Source of the DNA: a virus
Taxonomy: Duplodnaviria > Heunggongvirae > Uroviricota > Caudoviricetes
DNA length: 23,048 nucleotides
Strand: one strand, 5' to 3'
Virus record (IMG/VR): IMGVR_UViG_2651869692_000002
Within the stretch, counting starts at the first letter, position 1, and each line of letters opens with the position of its first letter. Positions 11,323 to 23,048 of the stretch are shown piece by piece. Under the pieces are notes generated by a model. The model did no database searches. It was given only the letters and a program-made list of their open reading frames with translations, and was not told where the DNA came from. The position numbers and the translations under genes were made by a program.

Positions 11323-12356
11323 TGGGAAAGAGTAAGAAGAACCGCGCTGCGTCGACGAAACAGATCCAGCATAAAAGCCAGACTTCAGCCGAAGCATTCA
11401 GCTTCGGTGATCCCGTTCCTGTTCTGGACCGCCGCGAACTGCTGGACTATGTGGAATGCGTACAGATGGATCGCTGGTATGAGCCACCAGTGAGTTTCGA
11501 CGGACTGGCGCGAACCTTCCGCGCCGCCATACATCATAGCTCACCGATTGCAGTGAAGTGCAACATTCTGACCAGCACCTACATCCCTCACCCGCTGCTC
11601 AGCCAGCAGGCTTTTTCGCGTTTTGTACAGGACTTTCTGGTTTTTGGTAACGCCTACCTGGAGAAACGCACGAACCGCTTCGGTGAAGTTATAGCCCTTG
11701 AGCCTGCTCTGGCAAAATACACCCGACGCGGGTTAGACCTGGATACCTACTGGTTTGTGCAATACGGTATGACAACCCAGCCGTATCAGTTCACGAAAGG
11801 CAGCATTTTTCATCTGATGGAGCCGGACATCAACCAGGAGATCTACGGCCTGCCCGGTTATCTTTCTGCCATTCCGTCAGCCCTGCTCAACGAGTCCGCC
11901 ACGCTGTTCCGCCGGAAGTATTACATTAACGGCAGCCATGCGGGCTTCATCATGTACATGACCGACGCCGCGCAGAACCAGGAGGATGTGAACAACCTCC
12001 GCAACGCAATGAAAAGTGCCAAAGGTCCTGGTAACTTCCGTAACCTGTTTATGTACTCGCCTAACGGCAAAAAGGACGGGCTTCAGATTATCCCGTTGTC
12101 AGAAGTGGCGGCGAAGGATGAGTTCCTGAATATCAAGAACGTGAGCCGGGACGACATGATGGCGGCGCATCGTGTGCCGCCGCAAATGATGGGTATCATT
12201 CCCAACAATACCGGCGGTTTTGGGGATGTGGAAAAGGCCAGTCGCGTCTTCACAAGAAACGAAATAGTACCGTTACAAAAGCGATTGCTGGAGCTAAATG
12301 AATGGCTTGGTGAAGAGGTAGTCCGATTCAATCCATATGAGCTTAATACTGACTAG
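11322..12356 (+). CDS. Q: Portal (capsid portal vertex) protein (P2 gpQ-like)
   Basis: Track ORF starts at a TTG at 11319; the ATG at 11322 gives 344 aa, the length I recall for gpQ; the last ~80 nt are visibly AT-richer than the rest. Confidence 0.9.
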   Translation: MGKSKKNRAASTKQIQHKSQTSAEAFSFGDPVPVLDRRELLDYVECVQMDRWYEPPVSFDGLARTFRAAIHHSSPIAVKCNILTSTYIPHPLLSQQAFSRFVQDFLVFGNAYLEKRTNRFGEVIALEPALAKYTRRGLDLDTYWFVQYGMTTQPYQFTKGSIFHLMEPDINQEIYGLPGYLSAIPSALLNESATLFRRKYYINGSHAGFIMYMTDAAQNQEDVNNLRNAMKSAKGPGNFRNLFMYSPNGKKDGLQIIPLSEVAAKDEFLNIKNVSRDDMMAAHRVPPQMMGIIPNNTGGFGDVEKASRVFTRNEIVPLQKRLLELNEWLGEEVVRFNPYELNTD

Positions 12357-12363
12357 CAAGCAT

Positions 12364-12388
12364 AAAAAAGCCCGGTATTACCGGGCTT
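12364..12388 (-). terminator. Rho-independent terminator (hairpin plus T-tract on the minus strand), possibly bidirectional
   Basis: AAAAA-AGCCCGG-TATTA-CCGGGCT: GC stem followed by a T-run when read on the minus strand; sits between the Q stop and the 3' end of the minus-strand small ORF. Confidence 0.55.
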
Positions 12389-12411
12389 CATGCAAAACGC
12401 ATTTCATGGAA

Positions 12412-12591
12412 TTAAGCAGCTTTCTGCTTTTCTTTGAGCTTACCATGCAGCTCATTTCCTTCAAATTTGCAGTCCTGCATCATATGTGGGGCCGCTTGAA
12501 GTAGTTCTTCCATCGCGACGCCCATACGGCTGAAAACATCAGATACTGAGTAATGCTTCTGAGCTTTCTTGTCACTATGCGTCATAGTCAT
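12412..12591 (-). CDS. Small hypothetical protein (59 aa), second gene of a two-gene minus-strand module
   Basis: Not in the ORF track (under 60 aa); ATG at 12591 preceded by AGAGGA at good spacing; reads MTMTHSDKKAQKHYSVSDVFSRMGVAMEELLQAAPHMMQDCKFEGNELHGKLKEKQKAA; followed by the terminator at 12364-12388. Confidence 0.4.
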   Translation of the reverse strand: MTMTHSDKKAQKHYSVSDVFSRMGVAMEELLQAAPHMMQDCKFEGNELHGKLKEKQKAA

Positions 12592-12670
12592 GATTTCCTC
12601 TTAGAGGTCAAGCCTCATCATCCGGTGGTGGATGTTTGGCGCAGCATTGTAGCACTGCGCAAAAATTTAT

Positions 12671-13270
12671 CTACTGTTTCTTAGAAGTAATGTAGCGTCT
12701 TACTACATCAGTTATTGTAGCAAAAGGTGCCGAAAGCAAGCTTATATCACCTTTAAAACCAAATTTTTTATAGTGGTCAGCAACTTTTTGATTCAGGGCT
12801 TCAGGGATCCGAATCTCTTGACACCCAACCGCGCTACCAAAAAGATATACCGCCCACAATGTAACCATGAACATGTTGCCGTAAAGAGGGTGCTCTACGT
12901 CATCATCTTTCACAAAAGATTCCACAAAATGGATCTCTATGACTCCAGCGTCCTCGTCAAAGGTGCACATAGCTGCGCCAGAAGGGATATGCCTAAGTGG
13001 CCCCGCAAGGAGCTTCAAACAAAATTCAAACTTATCACTTCGATTGCCAAACCGAGAAAAACCATAATCCCATTCTAGCTGAGCGTATCCTGTGGTCAGG
13101 ATCACATAGTCTTCATCACTGATTGGACCAACAGCCAACGGCATCTTCAAAGTATCGAGGAGAAACTGAAGGTTACTTATACTTTGACTGGCAATCTGCT
13201 CTAAGTTCAATTCTCTGTCCTTCATGCTTACGACATTAAAGGCGACTACTTTAATGTCATTTTCGGACAA
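12671..13270 (-). CDS. Hypothetical protein (199 aa), AT-rich accessory gene between the portal gene and the putative cos
   Basis: 600-nt ORF in an AT-rich region; start uncertain (TTG at 13270 or ATG at 13225, neither with a strong RBS); no family recognised. Confidence 0.5.
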   Translation of the reverse strand: MSENDIKVVAFNVVSMKDRELNLEQIASQSISNLQFLLDTLKMPLAVGPISDEDYVILTTGYAQLEWDYGFSRFGNRSDKFEFCLKLLAGPLRHIPSGAAMCTFDEDAGVIEIHFVESFVKDDDVEHPLYGNMFMVTLWAVYLFGSAVGCQEIRIPEALNQKVADHYKKFGFKGDISLLSAPFATITDVVRRYITSKKQ

Positions 13271-13496
13271 AGACTATAAATCTTTAATGAAACAATAGCA
13301 GAACCTTTTAAAGGTTTGCTACCTATCACTGCAACTTGTGACAGAACACTAAATCTACAGCCAACTCCGGAACACATTCAACATTTATTTAAATCCCTTC
13401 AAACAAGATTGCACAAAAACGCGCCCTCCCTTTCAGAAGAAAACCATCAGCGGGCCTGAGGCTAAGTGAATTTTACTATTTCAACCCGCGGCGCGC

Positions 13497-13515
13497 GCTC
13501 GTATCCCCGCCACGC
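13497..13515 (-). other. Putative cos site (cohesive-end region) of the P2/186 family
   Basis: Minus strand reads GGCGTGGCGGGGATACGAG; the first 13 nt match my recollection of the P2/186 cohesive-end consensus (GGCG(A/T)GGCGGGGAAAGCA.), in the orientation expected for the Q-proximal genome end; GC-rich island inside AT-rich DNA. Confidence 0.4.
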
Positions 13516-13560
13516 CTGCCCGCTTTGTGTAGTGGTTTTCATGCACCTGCATGACATAAG

Positions 13561-13584
13561 CAAAAGCCCGCCAGCTCTGGCGGG
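13561..13584 (-). terminator. Rho-independent terminator downstream of the HNH gene
   Basis: 9-bp GC stem GCCCGCCAG / CTGGCGGGC followed on the minus strand by TTTTGCTT. Confidence 0.55.
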
Positions 13585-13698
13585 CATCAGCAAAAACGAT
13601 CCTCAAACGATCATGCGATTTCATGCGGCATAGACATGCGTTGGCAAAAATGCACGAAATACTCAGCTTATAGGAAATGGTCTTTTTCCAACCTCCAG

Positions 13699-14418
13699 TT
13701 AGCCAAAGCAGAAACCAATATTGCAATTTGAAACTCCACAGTTGTGAAATTGATGTGGACCTACTCTTAGCTTGTGTTCGTCTCCTACAATCCGAGTCCC
13801 CTTAACCAACATATCTAATCTTTCCACAATCAATCTTTCAGGCGCATCAACTTTAATAATTAAACGAGGACCTTTCCTTTTTTCTATAATAGTTATTCTA
13901 GGACCGACAACCTGAACATCCCAATGCCTTGCACTACAAACCCACTCATTCTTAATTAATTCAAGATTAACAATACCTTGACTATCGTAAAATTTACCCG
14001 AAATAAGAAAAGCATTATTTTCTTTTTCAATGGTTAACAATGGCTCATTTTGAAACATTATTGGTACAGTACAGGATTCAAACGTCGCACCACCAAATAT
14101 TATTGTTGGATGCCTATCAGAAAAGTCCAATATATCGGCCACATTCCCTTTTTGTAAGGCTGCAGGAGATTCCATTGCTTTAATTATTTTCTCTTTAGAG
14201 TAAAGACGTTTCGTTACTTTCGCATGGCACGTAGGACAAAGTAGTGCTATTGCATTTGGAGAGTGCTCCTTTGCATCAGCGTATGTGGGAATTACATGCT
14301 CATACTCAACAATGGGAGAAGCACAAACAACGCAACCGAAGCCACAGCGCTGCCTTACCTCCAGTTTTACAGGTTCAGGAATTGTTCTAGATAACCCATG
14401 CTTGTTAATAGTTGTCAT
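13699..14418 (-). CDS. HNH-family endonuclease domain protein with uncharacterised ~160-aa C-terminal domain
   Basis: 239-aa ORF, ATG at 14418; N-terminal CGFGCVVC...EYEHVIP...NAIALLCPTCH matches the HNH fold (paired Cys plus H-N-H residues); AT-rich composition; own terminator. Confidence 0.7.
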   Translation of the reverse strand: MTTINKHGLSRTIPEPVKLEVRQRCGFGCVVCASPIVEYEHVIPTYADAKEHSPNAIALLCPTCHAKVTKRLYSKEKIIKAMESPAALQKGNVADILDFSDRHPTIIFGGATFESCTVPIMFQNEPLLTIEKENNAFLISGKFYDSQGIVNLELIKNEWVCSARHWDVQVVGPRITIIEKRKGPRLIIKVDAPERLIVERLDMLVKGTRIVGDEHKLRVGPHQFHNCGVSNCNIGFCFG

Positions 14419-14540
14419 AACCTTACCTTAAAACTTCGAGAAACCTTTTATATATTGATACTATATCAACTAACGCCTCGCACAGCTCGTTGTTCAACCT
14501 TGCTGACGCCAGAAGCAAGTTCAGACGCCAGCAACGTTTC

Positions 14541-14774
14541 TTAATGCAGCCAGCTGTCGTCTTCCCACACCTTCTGCATAATTTTCATCACTTGTTTTCT
14601 TTCTTCGTCCAGTTGAAGTCCGGTCAGTTCCACACCGTTAGAGCTACCTTTGCGGATACGAATTACCGTTTTGGGATACAGGGGGCGCAGATTGCGGTAA
14701 AGCTCGGATTCAAGGGCGTCCAGGGTAGACTGGCTAATCTTCTGCTCTTTATCGATCATTATTTCAATGCGCAT
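14541..14774 (-). CDS. dinI: DinI-family protein
   Basis: ATG at 14774 with GAGGTGA RBS; MRIEIMIDK...L.ELYRNLRPLYPKTVIRIRKGSSNGVELTGL...KQVMKIMQKVWEDDSWL resembles DinI (MRIEVTI..., C-terminal ...WE..D.W); the track ORF's longer N-terminus is a frame artefact. Confidence 0.75.
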   Translation of the reverse strand: MRIEIMIDKEQKISQSTLDALESELYRNLRPLYPKTVIRIRKGSSNGVELTGLQLDEERKQVMKIMQKVWEDDSWLH

Positions 14775-14784
14775 AAAAGTCACC

Positions 14785-14973
14785 TCAACTGATGACATCC
14801 ATTGAGCGGTTGTATTCGTGGGTTCTGATTTTTGCCATGAGTTCATCTGTCAGTTCAGAAACCCACTGCAGGGCCAGCCCCTTCTCTTCATCACTACACT
14901 CACTAGCCGCTACAAGCTTAAGAAAAAAATCAATGCGCTGGAGCTTCAAAGACTCCAAAAAATAGTCCTGCAT
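14785..14973 (-). CDS. Small SOS-controlled protein (62 aa), first gene downstream of a LexA box; possible Tum-like antirepressor component
   Basis: ATG at 14973 with AGGAGG RBS, 41 nt downstream of a consensus LexA box; stop overlaps the RBS of the DinI-like gene; functional assignment is by position only. Confidence 0.5.
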   Translation of the reverse strand: MQDYFLESLKLQRIDFFLKLVAASECSDEEKGLALQWVSELTDELMAKIRTHEYNRSMDVIS

Positions 14974-15014
14974 CTTTCCTCCTATGACACCACAAGAAAT
15001 ACTGTAAATATAAC

Positions 15015-15034
15015 CACTGTTTATATTTACAGTA
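15015..15034 (-). promoter_or_regulatory. LexA operator (SOS box) at the promoter of the small-ORF / dinI module
   Basis: Minus strand TACTGTAAATATAAACAGTG fits CTGT-N8-ACAG with AT-rich spacer; an adjacent half-site (CTGT at 15002-15005) is also present. Confidence 0.7.
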
Positions 15035-15125
15035 TATAATAATCTTACTGATGTAAAACGTTTTTTACGTTCATCAGCCTGATATGCCTGGTATTATTAA
15101 GAGCACGAATTGTTAACCCGCGTGA

Positions 15126-17540
15126 TTAATACAGGTTCCGCCACTTATCATCTTCCTGCAAACGCTGGTTCCGATAGAAGATACGCAGGCCTGCTCCTGA
15201 CGGAATACTGCCGCCGCGAAGGAGTAAATCGACCTCTTTCTCGCTGCCATCAAATCCTCTGGACTTCAGTTCATAGACGAGCTGCTGTCGCTGATGGTCT
15301 GTAATTCGCTGTTTGTAGTCTTTACGCCGTTTCGGTTTCACCAGGCGTAACCTTGCTGCCAGTTCCCGGCGCTCTTTTTTGCTCATACTGTGCAGGTAAT
15401 CGTGCAACTCCTTGTCATCCATGCGGGTAATGTCCGTTCTGGTATCCCCATCAGCTGATTTGTCTTTCCCTTGTTGGTTCAAATTTTCAGCAAGGGGACA
15501 GTTATTGCCACGAGTCCAAGGGGCGCAAGCGCCCTGGTCGGCTGCCGCCTCCTGAACGTCAACGGCCTTACGAACCATTTTCCACTTCACGGCATGAGTG
15601 CAGATCTTGCCCTCTGCAATAGGTGACCAGATGCCATAAATACGAATGCCGTGATCGCCATAGGCGGTCGGCTCTTCGTTGATTTCATAAGCAGTTCTGA
15701 TGAGGTGATATTTACGGGGAACCAGTACGCCGCCCTGCTTCATGATGTAGGTGGCAAAACAACCAGCATCAGCAGCAGCCAGGATTGCATCAAGCCGCGG
15801 GTTATCCAGTACCGGCGCACCTGCTTTTTTGTCACCCTGTTGCCTTGCCGCCTGACCAGCCAGCAATCGCAGTTCACGGTAAGCCTGACGCCCCGGAATG
15901 CCAAAGAAGCGGAATTGCTGAACACGATGCAGAGACGCCCAGGCATTCACGTATTCAGCGTTATCACGCAGGGATTTACCCGTTTCCTTGCTGATCTCGC
16001 CAGCCAGACCACGCCCGTCAATGTTCTTACTGATATATTTCGCGATGTAGCTTGTCGGCGTTCCTTTGCGCGGGTTAATCAACTCAGACTTAAAGCGTGG
16101 TCCCGTGTTATTCCCCAGCTCCTCGCGGTCTTCACGAATGGCAAACTTACGCAACAAAGCAGTAATGGCGCGGCGATCTTTTTTGCGCATAAAACACAAC
16201 AGGTGCCAGTGAACTGTACCGTCATGATGCGGCTCAGCCACCCGCACGCCATACCAGCGCAATCCGGCTTTGTGCATCGCCTTACGAAATGCAGCAAACA
16301 TGCCAACCAGATAATCACTGCTTTGTCTTACCGTCGCATTTGTCCAGGTCGGGTTGGGCCTGCCGTTATTTAGCGTGGAATGGAAACGTGACGGACAGGT
16401 GATGGTGTAGAAAACGGCGCAGTCACCGCGCATTTCCGCGATAAGCTCCAGGCCTTTAACACAGGCCATCATCTCATTGCGGCGATGCGCAGGGTTGCTG
16501 CTGCTGGCGTTTACCACATCCTCCATGTCCAGCGTGTCGCCGTCTTCGTTCACCAGTTCATGAGAACGGAAAAACTCCAGCGACTTACGGCGCTGCTCAC
16601 GTTTATGCATCACGGCTTCATAGCTGACATAGGGAGATGCTTTTTTGCTGACCAGACAGACAGCACGCAACTGCTCTTCCCGCCATTCGCAACGCATCTT
16701 CCATAATTTCCGATACCACCAGTCGGCGCACAGCATACGCGCCAGCGAACCCGGAATGAGTTCATAGGGCACAGGTTTGCGGCGGTTTCTTTTTCGGCGG
16801 AGTTGCTCAAACGCAGGCGGTATGACATCCAGTCGCAGGGTTTCTGCTGCCACCTTTTCCCATGTCTTGCGGATTTCTTCCGGCTTAACATCATCGGAGG
16901 CGTACAAATCACCACAAGCGGCATCAAGACACATGCTCATATGCGCAGCGACAAGGGTGGACAGGCGTTTCACCTGATCCTGACTCATTTCAGGCAGGAT
17001 CAGCAGACCGTCCAGCCCTTCATGGCTTGCCATAAAACGAAAAGATGCAGATAGCTGGCTGTCGCGTACATGCTCCAGTCGTTCCAGGCATGGCTTAATC
17101 GTCTCACGCAAATAGCGGGAATAAGCCTTTGGCCTGCCCAGGTTGCTGAAGTATTTAATACGTTGCATCAGCGGCTTGCTGATATGGGAAGGCTGGGCGT
17201 TGACATCCGCCAGAATGACCATGTCTGGATTAAAACGCTGCTGCTCATGCGCCAGCTTTGCCCGGCTAATTAGCTTATCCTGCTCCATTTCGCGCTGGAC
17301 AGGATCACGGGATTCATTAAAGAAATAACGCTCCCAGACCTGATCACTCAGTGCCTCGCGGCGCAGTTGTTCCTGCTCGTTATCGGCAGCGTACAGAGTG
17401 ATCAGGTTTGAAAGTGCAGAAACCGGCGCAACTTCCGCCGGGTCCAGATAAGGGTTAATGGCCTTTTTCGGGCTGTTCCATGAGAATGCTGCGGCAGCCT
17501 CGTTAAAGCCGCAGCAGTTGTTCATATCGGCATGACTCAT
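15126..17540 (-). CDS. A: Rolling-circle replication initiation protein (P2 gpA-like)
   Basis: 804-aa ORF with HWHLL metal-binding motif and YIAKYISK tyrosine motif typical of gpA/phiX174-type Rep proteins; canonical position after the early operon. Confidence 0.85.
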
Positions 17541-20195: not shown

Positions 20196-20320
20196 GATGC
20201 AACATTCCTCGTTTAATGATGATTAATCAGGACGAATACGGATCGTTTGTATTTTGTGAACACCATAAACATACGATCGCACGATGAAATCGTCAAGATA
20301 AAAGTTCACTTGGAGTGACC
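20196..20320. promoter_or_regulatory. Lysis-lysogeny switch region (face-to-face/divergent promoters and operators between apl and cI)
   Basis: 125-bp AT-rich intergenic region between divergent apl and cI; contains short inverted repeats (TTAAT-GATG-ATTAA; GTGAAC ... GTTCAC) that could be operators. Confidence 0.5.
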
Positions 20321-20890
20321 ATGAATTTGGAGAAAGGCGGACGAGGCGCTATAGAGCGCATGGTAGAAGCTTATGGATTCAAAACTCGACAGGCGTTGTG
20401 CGATCATTTAGGAATCTCTAAAAGTACACTCGCTACACGCTACATGCGTGACTCATTCCCAGCAGAATGGGTAATCCAGTGCGCCCTTGAAACGGGCACC
20501 TCGCTTAATTGGCTCACAACTGGACATGGTTCAAAGCAAACTTCAGGTAATACAAATACGATGGAAGTTGCGAAATATGTATTATCTGATGGTGCCTTGC
20601 GTGAAGACGGTTTTTATATTTTTGATAAGGGATTTCTACCCTCTACGTTTAAAAAACCTTTTGTCATCACAGATAACAATTCTGAATTTATTTGTGATAA
20701 AGAATTTGATGATATACGTGATGGTAAATGGGTAATAAGTATTGATGGCGAAATAACAATCCGCGACATTACTCGTTTACCCGGTGGAAGAATCTTCGTT
20801 GAAGGTGGAAACAGAGCCTTCGAGTGCAAGATAGAAGATGTTGAAATAATTGGAAAAATTATAAGTTTAACAATTAAGTACGTTAGGTAA
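20321..20890 (+). CDS. cI: CI immunity repressor (phage 186 type)
   Basis: ATG at 20321 with GGAG RBS (track ORF starts at an upstream GTG); EAYGF...CALETG..L.WLTTG and ITIRDITRLPG...FECKI.D motifs resemble 186 CI. Confidence 0.8.
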   Translation: MNLEKGGRGAIERMVEAYGFKTRQALCDHLGISKSTLATRYMRDSFPAEWVIQCALETGTSLNWLTTGHGSKQTSGNTNTMEVAKYVLSDGALREDGFYIFDKGFLPSTFKKPFVITDNNSEFICDKEFDDIRDGKWVISIDGEITIRDITRLPGGRIFVEGGNRAFECKIEDVEIIGKIISLTIKYVR

Positions 20891-20905: not shown

Positions 20906-21097
20906 ATGCTTGGTAAGGTATTTTTTGTGGTTTTATCATGCTCTTTGTTATTAAACCCACTAACTACCTATGCTAAAAATTATCCTTGTTCTGGGAAAAA
21001 GGGAGGTGTCTCTCACTGTACCTCCGATGGAAAGTTCGTTTGCAATGATGGAACTATTAGTAAATCAAAAAAAATCTGTACTAAAAACTCGCGATAA
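20906..21097 (+). CDS. Small secreted cysteine-rich protein (63 aa), moron between cI and int
   Basis: Strong GGGAGG RBS; N-terminal signal peptide (hydrophobic core, probable cleavage after TYA); mature part has 4 Cys; AT-rich. Confidence 0.5.
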
Positions 21098-21283
21098 TTT
21101 TTGCTTTTATATCTGCGCCTAATATAACAATGAGCCGCAGGCTAACCGCAAAAGTCACATACTCACATAGCAAAAAATAGCCAACTTCATTATGGCTTCA
21201 GTGAGATGTATGGTCGCAAGATTTCATACATTGACACTGGTTATACATACAGTAAAAATGCTCTCTATTGGAGGGCATTTTTT

Positions 21284-22315
21284 ATGGCAGTACGAAAACT
21301 CACCACAGGAAAATGGCTTTGCGAATGTTACCCCGCCGGACGTAGTGGGCGTCGTGTGCGTAAACAATTCGCCACCAAAGGCGAAGCACTGGCTTTTGAG
21401 CGTCACACGATGGAAGAAACCGAAGCAAAGCCCTGGCTGGGCGAATCAGTAGATCGTCGAACCCTGAAAGACGTGGTTGAGCTATGGTTCAAACTACATG
21501 GTAAATCTCTGACTGCTGGGCAGCATGTCTATGACAAATTGCTGCTGATGGTTGACGCTCTGGGCAATCCCCTTGCAACCGATCTCACATCTAAAATGTT
21601 TGCCCATTATCGAGATAAACGACTGACAGGTGAGATCTACTTCAGCGAGAAATGGAAGAAAGGGGCCAGCCCGGTCACCATTAACCTGGAGCAAAGCTAT
21701 CTAAGTAGTGTTTTTAGCGAACTATCCCGCCTGGGCGAATGGTCGTATCCAAACCCACTGGAGAACATGCGAAAATTCACCATCGCAGAAAAAGAGATGG
21801 CATGGCTTACCCATGAGCAGATTGTTGAACTGCTGGATGATTGCAAACGTCAGGACCCAATTCTGGCACTGGTAGTCAAGATATGCTTAAGCACAGGCGC
21901 ACGCTGGCGAGAAGCAATAAACCTTACCCGATCACAGGTGACCAAATACCGAATTACCTTTGTAAGAACGAAGGGGAAGAAAAACAGAAGCATCCCTATC
22001 AGTAAAGAGCTTTATGAAGAGATCATGGCGCTTGATGGGTTCAATTTCTTCACAGACTGCTATTTTCAATTTTTATCCGTGATGGAAAAAACGTCTATCG
22101 TGCTCCCTCGCGGTCAACTTACACACGTTCTGCGTCATACGTTTGCGGCGCATTTCATGATGTCGGGTGGAAACATCCTTGCTTTGCAAAAAATCCTCGG
22201 ACATCACGACATAAAAATGACTATGCGTTATGCTCATCTATCACCTGATCACTTAGAGACAGCTCTTCGTTTCAATCCACTGGCAACTTTGGATGTTACT
22301 AAATCAGATTCTTAA
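21284..22315 (+). CDS. int: Tyrosine integrase (P2/186 family)
   Basis: ATG at 21284 with GGAGGG RBS (track ORF has a 26-codon upstream extension); catalytic region VLRHTFAAHFMMSGGNILALQKILGHHDIKMTMRYAHL contains the H-x-x-R and Y motifs. Confidence 0.9.
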   Translation: MAVRKLTTGKWLCECYPAGRSGRRVRKQFATKGEALAFERHTMEETEAKPWLGESVDRRTLKDVVELWFKLHGKSLTAGQHVYDKLLLMVDALGNPLATDLTSKMFAHYRDKRLTGEIYFSEKWKKGASPVTINLEQSYLSSVFSELSRLGEWSYPNPLENMRKFTIAEKEMAWLTHEQIVELLDDCKRQDPILALVVKICLSTGARWREAINLTRSQVTKYRITFVRTKGKKNRSIPISKELYEEIMALDGFNFFTDCYFQFLSVMEKTSIVLPRGQLTHVLRHTFAAHFMMSGGNILALQKILGHHDIKMTMRYAHLSPDHLETALRFNPLATLDVTKSDS

Positions 22316-22325
22316 AGGTTCAAGC

Positions 22326-23048
22326 ATGGTTAAGTTTTTGTTTCAATTCCCAATATTCGACTTCTCCTTAACATTTGATATTATCGAGACGTTAATCACT
22401 CATAGCGAATCATCAATCGCTAAGGGCATAGCAGAATATAAAGACAAAGGACCTGAAGAATATATAATTGAAATATCTCCGGAAGATGGTGTATATCAGT
22501 CAATTGATCATTACATGGGACTCACCAGCTCATCGCTAGATCTCGATGAAATGTTTTTAGAATACTACCCAAGTATTATCCGCAGGTCAGTATTCTTAAC
22601 TATATTCGGAATTTTTGAGCACGAAATAGAAAAATTCTGTAACAACTTTGCTAATAGACATCATTCTCCTATAAATGTTTCAGATCTCAAAGGAAGTGGA
22701 TTTGAGAGGAGCCATCTATTTATCAAAAAAATGATAGGGATGAAGTCAACATCCCACTATTCGAATATCAAAAAAATAACAAAATTAAGAAACAGTTGTG
22801 CGCATAATGATGCAAAATACTTAGAAAACGATGGGCAAAATATTAAAAGCATTATTGAACTTATAGAAAAATATCCTGATTTTTTTAAAAAAGATGGAAA
22901 ACAGGTCCTATTTATGGGGGGCTCGTTAAGCATGATCTTGAACTCATTCAAAGAGTATCTTTCTGATGTTGAAAGAGCCTTAGATGAATTCGAAAAACAA
23001 AGCACTAGTGGCGACAAAGTGGCGGCAGCGGTTGGCATTACCCCGTAA
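22326..23048 (+). CDS. HEPN-motif protein (candidate RNase/abortive-infection-type effector); may alternatively start at 22293
   Basis: Very AT-rich ORF directly after int; canonical HEPN R-x4-H motif (RNSCAH at 22788-22805); final ~45 nt are abruptly GC-rich. Confidence 0.5.
   Translation: MVKFLFQFPIFDFSLTFDIIETLITHSESSIAKGIAEYKDKGPEEYIIEISPEDGVYQSIDHYMGLTSSSLDLDEMFLEYYPSIIRRSVFLTIFGIFEHEIEKFCNNFANRHHSPINVSDLKGSGFERSHLFIKKMIGMKSTSHYSNIKKITKLRNSCAHNDAKYLENDGQNIKSIIELIEKYPDFFKKDGKQVLFMGGSLSMILNSFKEYLSDVERALDEFEKQSTSGDKVAAAVGITP

What the first reader, a model, noticed from the sequence alone, without database searches (positions are those of the whole stretch)
23002..23048. Abrupt GC-rich tail at the end of the AT-rich ORF, a possible attachment-site or host junction
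The last ~45 nt (GTGGCGACAAAGTGGCGGCAGCGGTTGGCATTACCCCGTAA) switch sharply from ~30% GC to GC-rich while staying in frame. This pattern is expected where a prophage end or att core abuts or regenerates the 3' end of a host gene. The window ends here, so it cannot be resolved.
Basis: seen in the sequence. Interest (0 to 1): 0.4.

Follow-up and report, generated by a model that had tools for sequence, protein, structure and literature searches.

The report
Integrase-binding arm of phage attachment site
The GC-rich last 43 bases are not a host junction: they are the integrase-side arm of a 186-like prophage's attachment site, normally the end of the integrase gene, and an inserted AT-rich cargo gene now reads through them, which is a tidy but ordinary piece of phage anatomy.

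Summary
Window 23006-23048 is 58-60 % GC, the ORF body is 33 %, and the stretch stays in frame to TAA.

The stretch is phage DNA, not host DNA and not the att core. In about 1100 E. coli genomes and in isolated Klebsiella and E. coli phages, the same bases are the last 13 codons of the integrase gene (…PSGDKVAAAVGITP*). In this window a 0.77-kb AT-rich block (about 22240-23005) carrying a HEPN-like gene sits just upstream of them. Integrase therefore stops early, and the cargo ORF runs through the old integrase end to its stop codon.

The retained DNA holds two 11-bp-spaced copies of the phage-186-type integrase arm-site consensus: TAGTGGCGACA and AAGTGGCGGCA, the reverse complement of tgccGCCActt. 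A near-identical pair lies near ogr at the other prophage end. The first site starts exactly 119 nt from the core in 9 of 9 loci from several genera. Its synonymous positions are 93-100 % conserved, against about 49 % in the ORF body. It persists as non-coding DNA where the cargo has its own stop.

The true phage/host junction lies 78 nt beyond the window end. It is usually at the rybB 3' end and once inside fhuE.

This is a known kind of element, and integrase–att is a published minor cargo hotspot. Interest is low.

The parts
21284..22315 (+). Integrase gene of the 186 type (an upstream ATG at 21206 is also open). Here it ends ...RFNPLATLDVTKSDS* instead of ...LATLPSGDKVAAAVGITP*.
   Evidence: Pfam Int_N 2.7e-32 and Phage_integrase 4.1e-22. 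55 % identity to phage 186 Int, with the N-terminal W..E.Y pattern. Translations.
22240..23005 (+). Imported AT-rich mosaic block. It carries a foreign version of the last ~25 integrase codons, a 10-nt spacer and the body of the cargo ORF.
   Evidence: Integrase DNA is 96-98 % identical to cargo-free alleles up to 22239, then 67-72 % in 22240-22293 (alignment). Homology resumes at 23006. GC is 33-38 %.
22326..23048 (+). Cargo ORF of 240 aa, HEPN-like (RNSCAH = Rx4H). Its last 14 codons (23007-23048) are the former integrase 3' end.
23006..23016 (+). Arm-type integrase-binding site 1 (TAGTGGCGACA). It matches 9 of 11 positions of the 186-type consensus, reverse complement of tgccGCCActt.
   Evidence: Consensus from PMC3448106 and the phage 186 record annotation YAYCGCCAYTY. 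Conserved in 9 of 9 loci.
23017..23027 (+). Arm-type integrase-binding site 2 (AAGTGGCGGCA). It matches 11 of 11 consensus positions and lies 11 bp from site 1.
   Evidence: The paired motif occurs only once in the window.
23028..23048 (+). Remainder of the former integrase 3' end (GCGGTTGGCATTACCCCGTAA). It is conserved as DNA even where it is non-coding. It may hold an excisionase (Apl-like, GTTGGCA) site, and an inverted third arm site follows just past the window.
   Evidence: Conserved in non-coding context in Serratia, Enterobacter and metagenome loci. The resemblance to the 186 Apl repeats ATTGGCA/AATGGCA is inference only.

Best explanation
The window is part of a phage-186-like (Peduoviridae) prophage. 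Its last 43 nt are the integrase-proximal arm of attP. They hold two tandem arm-type binding sites for the N-terminal domain of the phage's tyrosine integrase, followed by about 20 further conserved bases.

In the common cargo-free form of this phage, the integrase ORF runs through these sites and ends at the same TAA. Here a ~0.77-kb AT-rich block has been recombined in. Its left crossover lies inside the integrase 3' end at about 22240, and its right edge is 1-2 nt before the first arm site. The block carries a HEPN-like, probably anti-phage or abortive-infection, cargo gene.

Any cargo must stay outside the arm-to-core segment, where geometry matters for integration and excision, so the arm sites were kept untouched. 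In this lineage the cargo ORF has no stop of its own before them. It therefore reads through in the old integrase frame and acquires a 13-residue, probably unstructured, C-terminal extension (SGDKVAAAVGITP).

Shown: the homology, the position, the repeat at the other end, the fixed spacing and the DNA-level conservation. Inferred: that integrase binds these sites, that the extension has no function, and that the cargo acts in defence.
For: 1. The same DNA is the integrase 3' end elsewhere. Klebsiella phage 4LV2017 and E. coli NC19 integrase end ...LATLPSGDKVAAAVGITP* on an identical sequence. Of 5426 E. coli genomes, 1134 carry this integrase plus arm. In the 60 sampled rows most have the cargo-free span of 516 nt, and only 25 genomes carry the HEPN block.

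2. The site match is good. AAGTGGCGGCA is the exact reverse complement of the published 186-type arm consensus tgccGCCActt (PMC3448106). The phage 186 record annotates arm-type sites YAYCGCCAYTY, 3 to the left and 2 to the right of attP. It shows the same layout right after a small cargo ORF, orf69: GAATGGCGATAAAGTGGCGGTAG. This integrase also has the 186-type N-terminal W..E.Y pattern.

3. There is a second pair on the other arm. ATGGCGACAAAATGGCGGCA plus an inverted CGCCACC lies between the core and ogr in E. coli DSM 103246 and in phage 4LV2017.

4. The geometry is fixed. Site 1 starts exactly 119 nt from the end of the core ATGG, with no indels, in 9 of 9 loci from E. coli, Klebsiella, Enterobacter, Serratia, Cronobacter and metagenomes. 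The 40 nt upstream cannot be aligned.

5. At least three different cargo genes plus the cargo-free state share the same right edge: an 89-aa ORF, a 110-aa ORF in BL21/BLR(DE3), and the HEPN gene.

6. The constraint acts on the DNA. Among fused homologues, third codon positions are 48-50 % identical in the body but 93-100 % in the tail, while amino acids change (A/T, V/I, I/T). Distant homologues have their own stop and keep the arm DNA as non-coding sequence. In L015 the stop TAG is the first three bases of site 1, and the same TAG is out of frame in the window.

7. The tail residues are modelled as disordered: pLDDT is below 50 for residues 230-240.

8. Integrase–att is a reported minor defence hotspot of P2-like phages (PMC13586616).
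Against: - No binding or recombination data exist for this phage. Even the 186 sites are labelled 'predicted' in its record.
- Site 1 matches only 9 of 11 consensus positions.
- The motif RTGGCGRCA also occurs three times elsewhere in the window (5 observed, 1.5 expected), although never as a pair.
- The arm model does not by itself explain conservation of 23028-23048.
- The direction of evolution is not established: integrase reading through the arm could be ancestral, or it could be secondary after cargo loss.
- The far-arm repeat and the junction were read in near-identical relatives, not in the window. Over the last 4799 nt the window differs from the E. coli relative at 7 positions.
- The HEPN assignment is below Pfam's threshold, and Foldseek found nothing significant.
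Confidence: 0.8

Rival explanations
1. One reading: the tail is the att core or the host side of the junction, where integration regenerates the 3' end of a host gene that the AT-rich ORF has been fused to.
For: The composition shift is sharp, stays in frame, and sits at the integrase end of a prophage. A related sequence does recur at the other prophage end.
Against: - The junction lies 78 nt further on. In DSM 103246, fhuE homology begins at the AATGG, and in the other 24 HEPN-carrying genomes homology ends there.
- The tail lies inside phage genomes, as part of the integrase gene.
- Host targets rybB and fhuE share only 5-14 nt with the phage, and none of it is the tail.
- The far-end repeat is internal to the phage and imperfect.
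Confidence: 0.02
2. The tail is a neutral relic. It is simply the leftover end of the integrase gene after cargo insertion, with no function in cis, and has not yet decayed.
For: It is clearly homologous to the integrase 3' end. 186 Int lacks the equivalent C-terminal residues, so the peptide is dispensable.
Against: - It is retained with zero indels and about 90 % identity across genera in which the adjacent cargo has diverged to 45-75 % protein identity, including lineages where it is non-coding.
- It matches a published protein-binding consensus and is duplicated on the other arm.
- Every cargo allele stops within 1-2 nt of it.
Confidence: 0.07
3. The tail is kept for its peptide. SGDKVAAAVGITP would be a functional C-terminal module (a regulatory tail, tag or interaction motif) shared by integrase and the HEPN-like protein.
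For: The fused form is stable across at least six genera at a constant 240 aa. C-terminal tails of tyrosine recombinases can modulate activity; this rests on general knowledge of lambda Int and was not tested here.
Against: - Substitutions in the tail are non-synonymous while synonymous sites are frozen, the reverse of what protein-level selection gives.
- Family members at 60 % identity or less, and other cargo genes at the same position, lack the tail.
- The integrase in this window has lost it.
- It is predicted to be disordered.
Confidence: 0.04
4. The conserved block serves mainly a different cis function: excisionase (Apl/Cox) or IHF binding, or termination of the cI-int lysogenic transcript, rather than integrase arm binding.
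For: - GTTGGCA at 23032-23038 resembles the 186 Apl repeats ATTGGCA/AATGGCA, which directly follow the arm sites in 186.
- Bases 23028-23048 are conserved but not explained by the arm consensus.
Against: - The best-conserved bases are the two consensus 11-mers themselves, and they recur on the ogr arm, where 186 has no Apl sites.
- No terminator-like hairpin was found at or after the tail.
- This reading complements the main explanation for 23028-23048 rather than replacing it.
Confidence: 0.07

Closest known systems
Coliphage 186 attP: arm-type integrase recognition sequences flanking the core, with orf69 between int and the int-side arm
   Same: - The site consensus, YAYCGCCAYTY or tgccGCCActt, is the same.
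- There are two tandem direct copies 11 bp apart on the integrase side, about 100-120 nt from the crossover.
- There are two direct copies plus one inverted copy on the B/ogr side.
- A small cargo ORF ends right before the integrase-side sites.
- The integrase is 55 % identical and has the same N-terminal W..E.Y pattern.
   Different: - The core and host target differ: the rybB sRNA 3' end, or fhuE in one strain, instead of tRNA-Ile ileY.
- In the cargo-free form of this lineage, the integrase ORF overlaps the arm sites.
- Here the cargo ORF, a HEPN-like gene of 240 aa rather than orf69 of 83 aa, is translated across them.
Klebsiella phage 4LV2017 (Elveevirus) and the rybB-integrating 186-like prophages of E. 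coli, including the BL21/BLR(DE3) prophage
   Same: Integrase is 96-98 % identical up to 22239. The arm-to-core segment is identical, the core is the same (ATGGGTTTTTTGTT...), and so is the ogr-side arm.
   Different: They carry no cargo, or a different one (89-aa or 110-aa ORFs), at the integrase/arm junction. In the cargo-free forms the tail is translated as the integrase C-terminus.
Integrase–att defence hotspot of P2-like phages (PMC13586616) and P2/P4 hotspots in general (PMC9122126)
   Same: Interchangeable, AT-rich cargo genes sit between conserved flanks at the integrase end of the prophage and are carried as part of the phage. A family member also occurs in a P4-like satellite.
   Different: The cargo here matches no PADLOC or NCBIfam model above threshold, so a defence role is inferred and not shown. 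The papers as read do not describe the right edge as being the arm-type site.
Single-protein HEPN toxins and abortive-infection proteins (HepT/HI0074-type, AbiD/F-like Abi_2, RiboL-PSP HEPN, Gifsy-1 HepS)
   Same: It has the Rx4H motif with invariant R, N and H, a helical HEPN-like core, and a prophage cargo location.
   Different: All sequence matches are below family cut-offs. The protein has an extra N-terminal helix and beta-hairpin region. No partner antitoxin gene is evident. The C-terminal 13 residues are borrowed from integrase.

Membership tests
186-type attP arm (arm-type integrase-binding sites) | Sequence matches the arm consensus tgccGCCActt / YAYCGCCAYTY | tested here: met
   23017-23027 matches 11 of 11 positions and 23006-23016 matches 9 of 11, on the reverse complement.
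186-type attP arm (arm-type integrase-binding sites) | [quoted passage not shown] | tested here: met
   There is a pair in the tail and a pair (plus an inverted copy) between the core and ogr. This was read in a near-identical E. coli prophage and in phage 4LV2017. The ogr arm lies outside the window.
186-type attP arm (arm-type integrase-binding sites) | Fixed position relative to the core, helically phased | tested here: met
   The sites are 11 bp apart. Site 1 starts 119 nt from the core ATGG in 9 of 9 loci without indels. This is comparable with the 186 layout.
186-type attP arm (arm-type integrase-binding sites) | Cognate integrase has the 186-type N-terminal arm-binding domain | tested here: met
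   GKWLCECYP aligns with 186 GGWICELYP, and both carry W, E and Y at the discriminating positions named in PMC3448106. Pfam Int_N scores 2.7e-32.
186-type attP arm (arm-type integrase-binding sites) | Integrase physically binds the sites, and they are needed for recombination | not testable with these tools
   This needs EMSA or footprinting and integration/excision assays.
att core / host-gene 3' end regenerated at a prophage junction | The segment lies at the phage/host boundary and is shared with the unoccupied host site | tested here: not met
   The boundary is 78 nt downstream. Host fhuE shares only AATGG, and the rybB site shares only ATGGGTTTTTTGTT. The tail lies inside phage genomes.
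att core / host-gene 3' end regenerated at a prophage junction | The repeat at the other end abuts host DNA | tested here: not met
   The other copy lies 66-87 nt inside the phage, next to ogr, and has 1 mismatch.
HEPN superfamily (the cargo ORF) | Rx4-6H catalytic motif conserved in the family | tested here: met
   RNSCAH is present. R155, N156 and H160 are invariant in 24 homologues.
HEPN superfamily (the cargo ORF) | Significant match to a curated HEPN family model | tested here: not met
   The best hit is HEPN_RiboL-PSP at 17.4 bits against a cut-off of 28.4. PADLOC HEPN-containing models give E of 0.005-0.02, and NCBIfam gives nothing.
HEPN superfamily (the cargo ORF) | HEPN helical fold | tested here: inconclusive
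Integrase–att cargo/defence hotspot of P2-like phages | Interchangeable gene content between conserved flanks at the same position | tested here: met
   E. coli has the cargo-free state plus three different cargo genes, 186 has orf69, and the HEPN family sits in the same slot in Serratia, Enterobacter, Cronobacter and metagenome loci.
Integrase–att cargo/defence hotspot of P2-like phages | Cargo has anti-phage activity | not testable with these tools
   There is only indirect support: HEPN-like features and a homologue in a P4-like satellite hotspot.

The most novel reading that the evidence does not exclude
Translating the cargo ORF across the two integrase arm sites might be functional rather than incidental. 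Integrase bound at the attL arm in a lysogen could block or pause transcription or translation of the HEPN gene's 3' end. Expression of a complete toxin/defence protein would then be coupled to the recombination state of the prophage. Alternatively, the 13-residue peptide shared by integrase and the HEPN protein could be a common regulatory tail. More broadly, the arm-type site could act as the defined right-hand recombination boundary at which cargo cassettes are exchanged between 186-like phages.
Probability: 0.07. Interest if true: 0.55.

Novelty: new member of a known kind. Interest (0 to 1): 0.2.

Why it matters
The main value is for annotation. A sharp in-frame composition switch at a prophage end can mark a cis-acting recombination site that cargo insertions must respect, rather than a host junction.

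Practical consequences:
- The true prophage boundary lies 78 nt past the last called gene. Prophage callers that cut at gene ends lose the att core and part of attP.
- The C-terminal 13 residues of the HEPN-like protein (WP_000238244.1) and its 73-96 % identical relatives are borrowed integrase codons and should not be read as part of the domain.
- The integrase/arm junction of rybB-integrating 186-like phages, present in about 21 % of complete E. coli genomes including BL21(DE3) derivatives, is a precisely bounded cargo slot that could be mined for untested defence genes.

None of this changes current understanding of P2/186 biology.

Tried and rejected
- Repeat search inside the window. The 41-nt tail has no second copy at up to 3 mismatches, and no direct-repeat family involves it. 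The window simply does not reach the other prophage end.
- Host-gene fusion. I looked for a host gene ending in GDKVAAAVGITP. The only genes ending this way are phage integrases and the fused cargo ORFs.
- Terminator at the tail. The pattern scan found nothing at or after it.
- Curated families for the cargo. NCBIfam gave nothing. Pfam and PADLOC gave only sub-threshold hits. The one solid PHROG hit is a family of unknown function.
- A literature search for rybB as a P2-like integration site returned no papers.
- Four family-search calls failed on a one-base frame error in my coordinates, and one paper search failed on a term that was too short.
- MAFFT misplaced the short tail of the cargo-free allele in alignment A1. 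I re-did that comparison with anchored, ungapped alignments.
- I considered whether the fhuE location meant the tail came from fhuE. It does not: only one of the 25 HEPN-carrying genomes is in fhuE, and fhuE homology starts after the core.

Full report
**1. The observation**

They lie in frame at the end of the ORF 22293/22326..23048 (+), which ends ...EFEKQSTSGDKVAAAVGITP*.

GC content is 58-60 % in the last 43-47 nt and 32.8 % in the ORF body. No other 43-nt window in the ORF exceeds 48.8 %. GC3 is 0.62 in the tail and 0.33 in the body. So the switch is real.

Its direction is misleading, though. The tail has the ordinary composition of this phage, whose structural genes are 55-60 % GC, and the AT-rich ORF is the foreign-looking part.

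**2. What the window is**

The window is part of a P2/186-like prophage of the Peduoviridae. From the integrase end backwards it holds:
- a 186-type CI repressor (20315-20890; Pfam Phage_CI_repr and Phage_CI_C);
- a tyrosine integrase (21284-22315; Int_N and Phage_integrase; 55 % identical to 186 Int);
- the AT-rich ORF.

A near-identical prophage in E. coli DSM 103246 differs at 7 positions over the last 4799 nt. Its annotation shows the CII, Fil, DUF2732 and TraR/DksA genes typical of 186, with ogr, D and the tail genes at the far end.

**3. Where the tail comes from**

In Klebsiella phage 4LV2017 the integrase gene ends ...RFNPLATLPSGDKVAAAVGITP*. Its final 42 nt are identical to the window's tail, and the same sequence follows.

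The same is true of E. coli NC19, of 14 Klebsiella phage records and of Escherichia phage vB_EcoM-813R9. In all of these, integrase and the tail are contiguous inside the phage genome.

Among 5426 complete E. coli genomes, 1134 carry this integrase plus tail. In the 60 sampled rows most have the cargo-free span of 516 nt, and only 25 genomes carry the AT-rich ORF.

In the window, integrase instead ends ...LATLDVTKSDS*. Integrase DNA is 96-98 % identical to the cargo-free alleles up to 22239, but only 67-72 % identical in 22240-22293. Homology returns at 23006.

So a block of about 766 bp (22240-23005) has been recombined in. It carries a foreign, AT-richer version of the last integrase codons together with the cargo ORF. 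The 14 codons from 23007 onward are the old integrase end.

**4. Why the tail is not the junction**

Reading on in the near-identical E. coli prophage, the sequence continues for 78 nt to ...TTTACATAAATGG and then becomes host DNA. In DSM 103246 the host DNA is the 3' part of fhuE, and the 5' part of fhuE abuts ogr at the other end. fhuE shares only AATGG with the phage.

That strain is the exception. The other 24 HEPN-carrying prophages diverge from fhuE at the same point. One of them that I examined, and three relatives (a cargo-free allele and two with other cargo genes), lie beside rcdA.

In phage 4LV2017 the attR-side sequence is a complete RybB sRNA (Rfam, 103 bits). The core ATGGGTTTTTTGTTGCCT is the rybB terminator end. 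The att core and the host junction are therefore outside the window, and the tail is phage DNA.

**5. What the tail does**

The tail contains TAGTGGCGACA (23006-23016) and AAGTGGCGGCA (23017-23027), 11 bp apart. Two independent published descriptions point to integrase arm-type sites:
- Nilsson et al. [quoted passage not shown] The second site is its exact reverse complement and the first matches 9 of 11 positions.
- The phage 186 record annotates predicted Int arm-type sequences YAYCGCCAYTY, three to the left and two to the right of attP. In 186 the integrase-side pair (GAATGGCGATAAAGTGGCGGTAG) directly follows a small cargo ORF, orf69, which sits between int and attP.

The integrase in this window also has the W..E.Y N-terminal pattern that the same paper assigns to 186-type arm recognition.

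At the other prophage end, between the core and ogr, both the E. coli relative and phage 4LV2017 carry ATGGCGACAAAATGGCGGCA. That is a 22-nt repeat of the tail with one mismatch. It is followed by an inverted CGCCACC, which mirrors the 186 left arm.

In nine loci from E. coli, Klebsiella, Enterobacter, Serratia, Cronobacter and metagenomes, the first site starts exactly 119 nt from the end of the core ATGG, with no indels. The 40 nt upstream share nothing. The paired motif occurs once in the window.

**6. The constraint is on DNA, not protein**

Close homologues of the cargo protein (73-96 % identity; Raoultella, Cronobacter, Phytobacter, Citrobacter, Enterobacter) all end SGDKVA[AT][AV][VI]Gxx P. 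Homologues at 60 % identity or less are 224-229 aa long and lack the tail.

Those shorter homologues occupy the same slot after a 186-type integrase, in Serratia marcescens, Enterobacter ludwigii and a metagenome. They stop at their own stop codon and are followed by the same arm DNA, now non-coding.

In L015 the stop TAG is the first three bases of TAGTGGCGACA. In the window the same TAG is out of frame, so the ORF reads on.

Among three fused homologues, third codon positions are 48-50 % identical in the body but 93-100 % identical in the tail. The few tail changes alter amino acids. The AlphaFold model is confident overall (pLDDT 85.5) but falls below 50 for residues 230-240. The extension therefore looks like a by-product of reading through a cis element.

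**7. The cargo slot**

E. coli shows at least four states at this junction:
- cargo-free;
- an 89-aa ORF (UPEC_U013);
- a 110-aa ORF (B strains, including BLR(DE3) and BL21-AI);
- the HEPN-like ORF.

All four keep RTGGCGACAAAGTGGCGGCAGCGGTTGGCATTACCCCGTAA, and their cargo ends within 1-2 nt to a few tens of nt before it. A 2026 survey lists integrase–att as a minor defence hotspot of P2-like phages, holding 3 % of their defence systems (PMC13586616).

**8. Verdict**

The tail is part of the attachment site, specifically an arm, and it does have a repeat at the other end. It is not the core, not host DNA and not a regenerated host gene.

The best explanation, with confidence of about 0.8, is this: the tail is an integrase arm-type site pair that doubles as the former integrase 3' end, preserved because cargo must stay outside the arm-to-core segment.

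Integrase binding itself remains untested. The role of 23028-23048 is open, and it may hold an Apl-type site. Whether integrase reading through the arm is ancestral or secondary is also unresolved.

This is a new member of a known kind, and interest is low.

Noticed in passing
L003 4600-4625 and L001 4870-4880 (E. coli DSM 103246; outside the window, 78 nt past its end): In this one strain the prophage is inserted inside fhuE (ferric-coprogen receptor), splitting it into two pseudogene halves. Only AATGG is shared between attP and the target. About 1100 related prophages use the rybB 3' end beside rcdA instead. This looks like a secondary-site integration that inactivates a TonB-dependent receptor.
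   Followed up: partly
L004 728-806 (-), Klebsiella phage 4LV2017 attR side: The usual attB of this integrase type is the terminator end of the sRNA gene rybB (Rfam RybB, 103 bits), and the phage core regenerates it. A full-text search found no paper naming rybB as a P2-like integration site.
   Followed up: partly
window 20906-21097 (+); L005 1281-2861; L008 1966-2835; L015 397-1848: There is a second variable slot between the CI repressor gene and int. It holds a 63-aa ORF with no family here, but 526-aa, 289-aa and KAP-NTPase (483 aa) genes in relatives.
   Followed up: no
window 12000-15500: A second AT-rich stretch (GC 39-46 %) lies between the capsid/terminase genes and the replication gene. 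It holds a DinI/Tum-like gene (14544-14846, -), an HNH-domain protein (13702-14418, -) and two ORFs with no family. It corresponds to the known gpA-portal hotspot of P2-like phages.
   Followed up: partly
L013 1869-3687 (Raoultella ornithinolytica CP010557): A 41 % identical member of the HEPN-like family lies next to a DUF4238 gene and a P4-type primase. It may therefore form a two-gene system in a P4-like satellite hotspot.
   Followed up: no
just past the window end: L001 4800-4815; L005 4741-4753; L008 4741-4753: Right after the old integrase stop codon there is an inverted copy of the arm consensus. It is clear in the Enterobacter, Serratia and Cronobacter loci (TAATCGCCACT) and degenerate in the E. 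coli and Klebsiella type (TAACCACCACT). Two copies of CTAACTTATTG(T/A)TT follow, possibly IHF or excisionase sites.
   Followed up: no
L021 1-627 (E. coli N18-04097): The integrase upstream of an identical HEPN cargo gene is annotated as frameshifted, so that prophage copy may be unable to excise.
   Followed up: no
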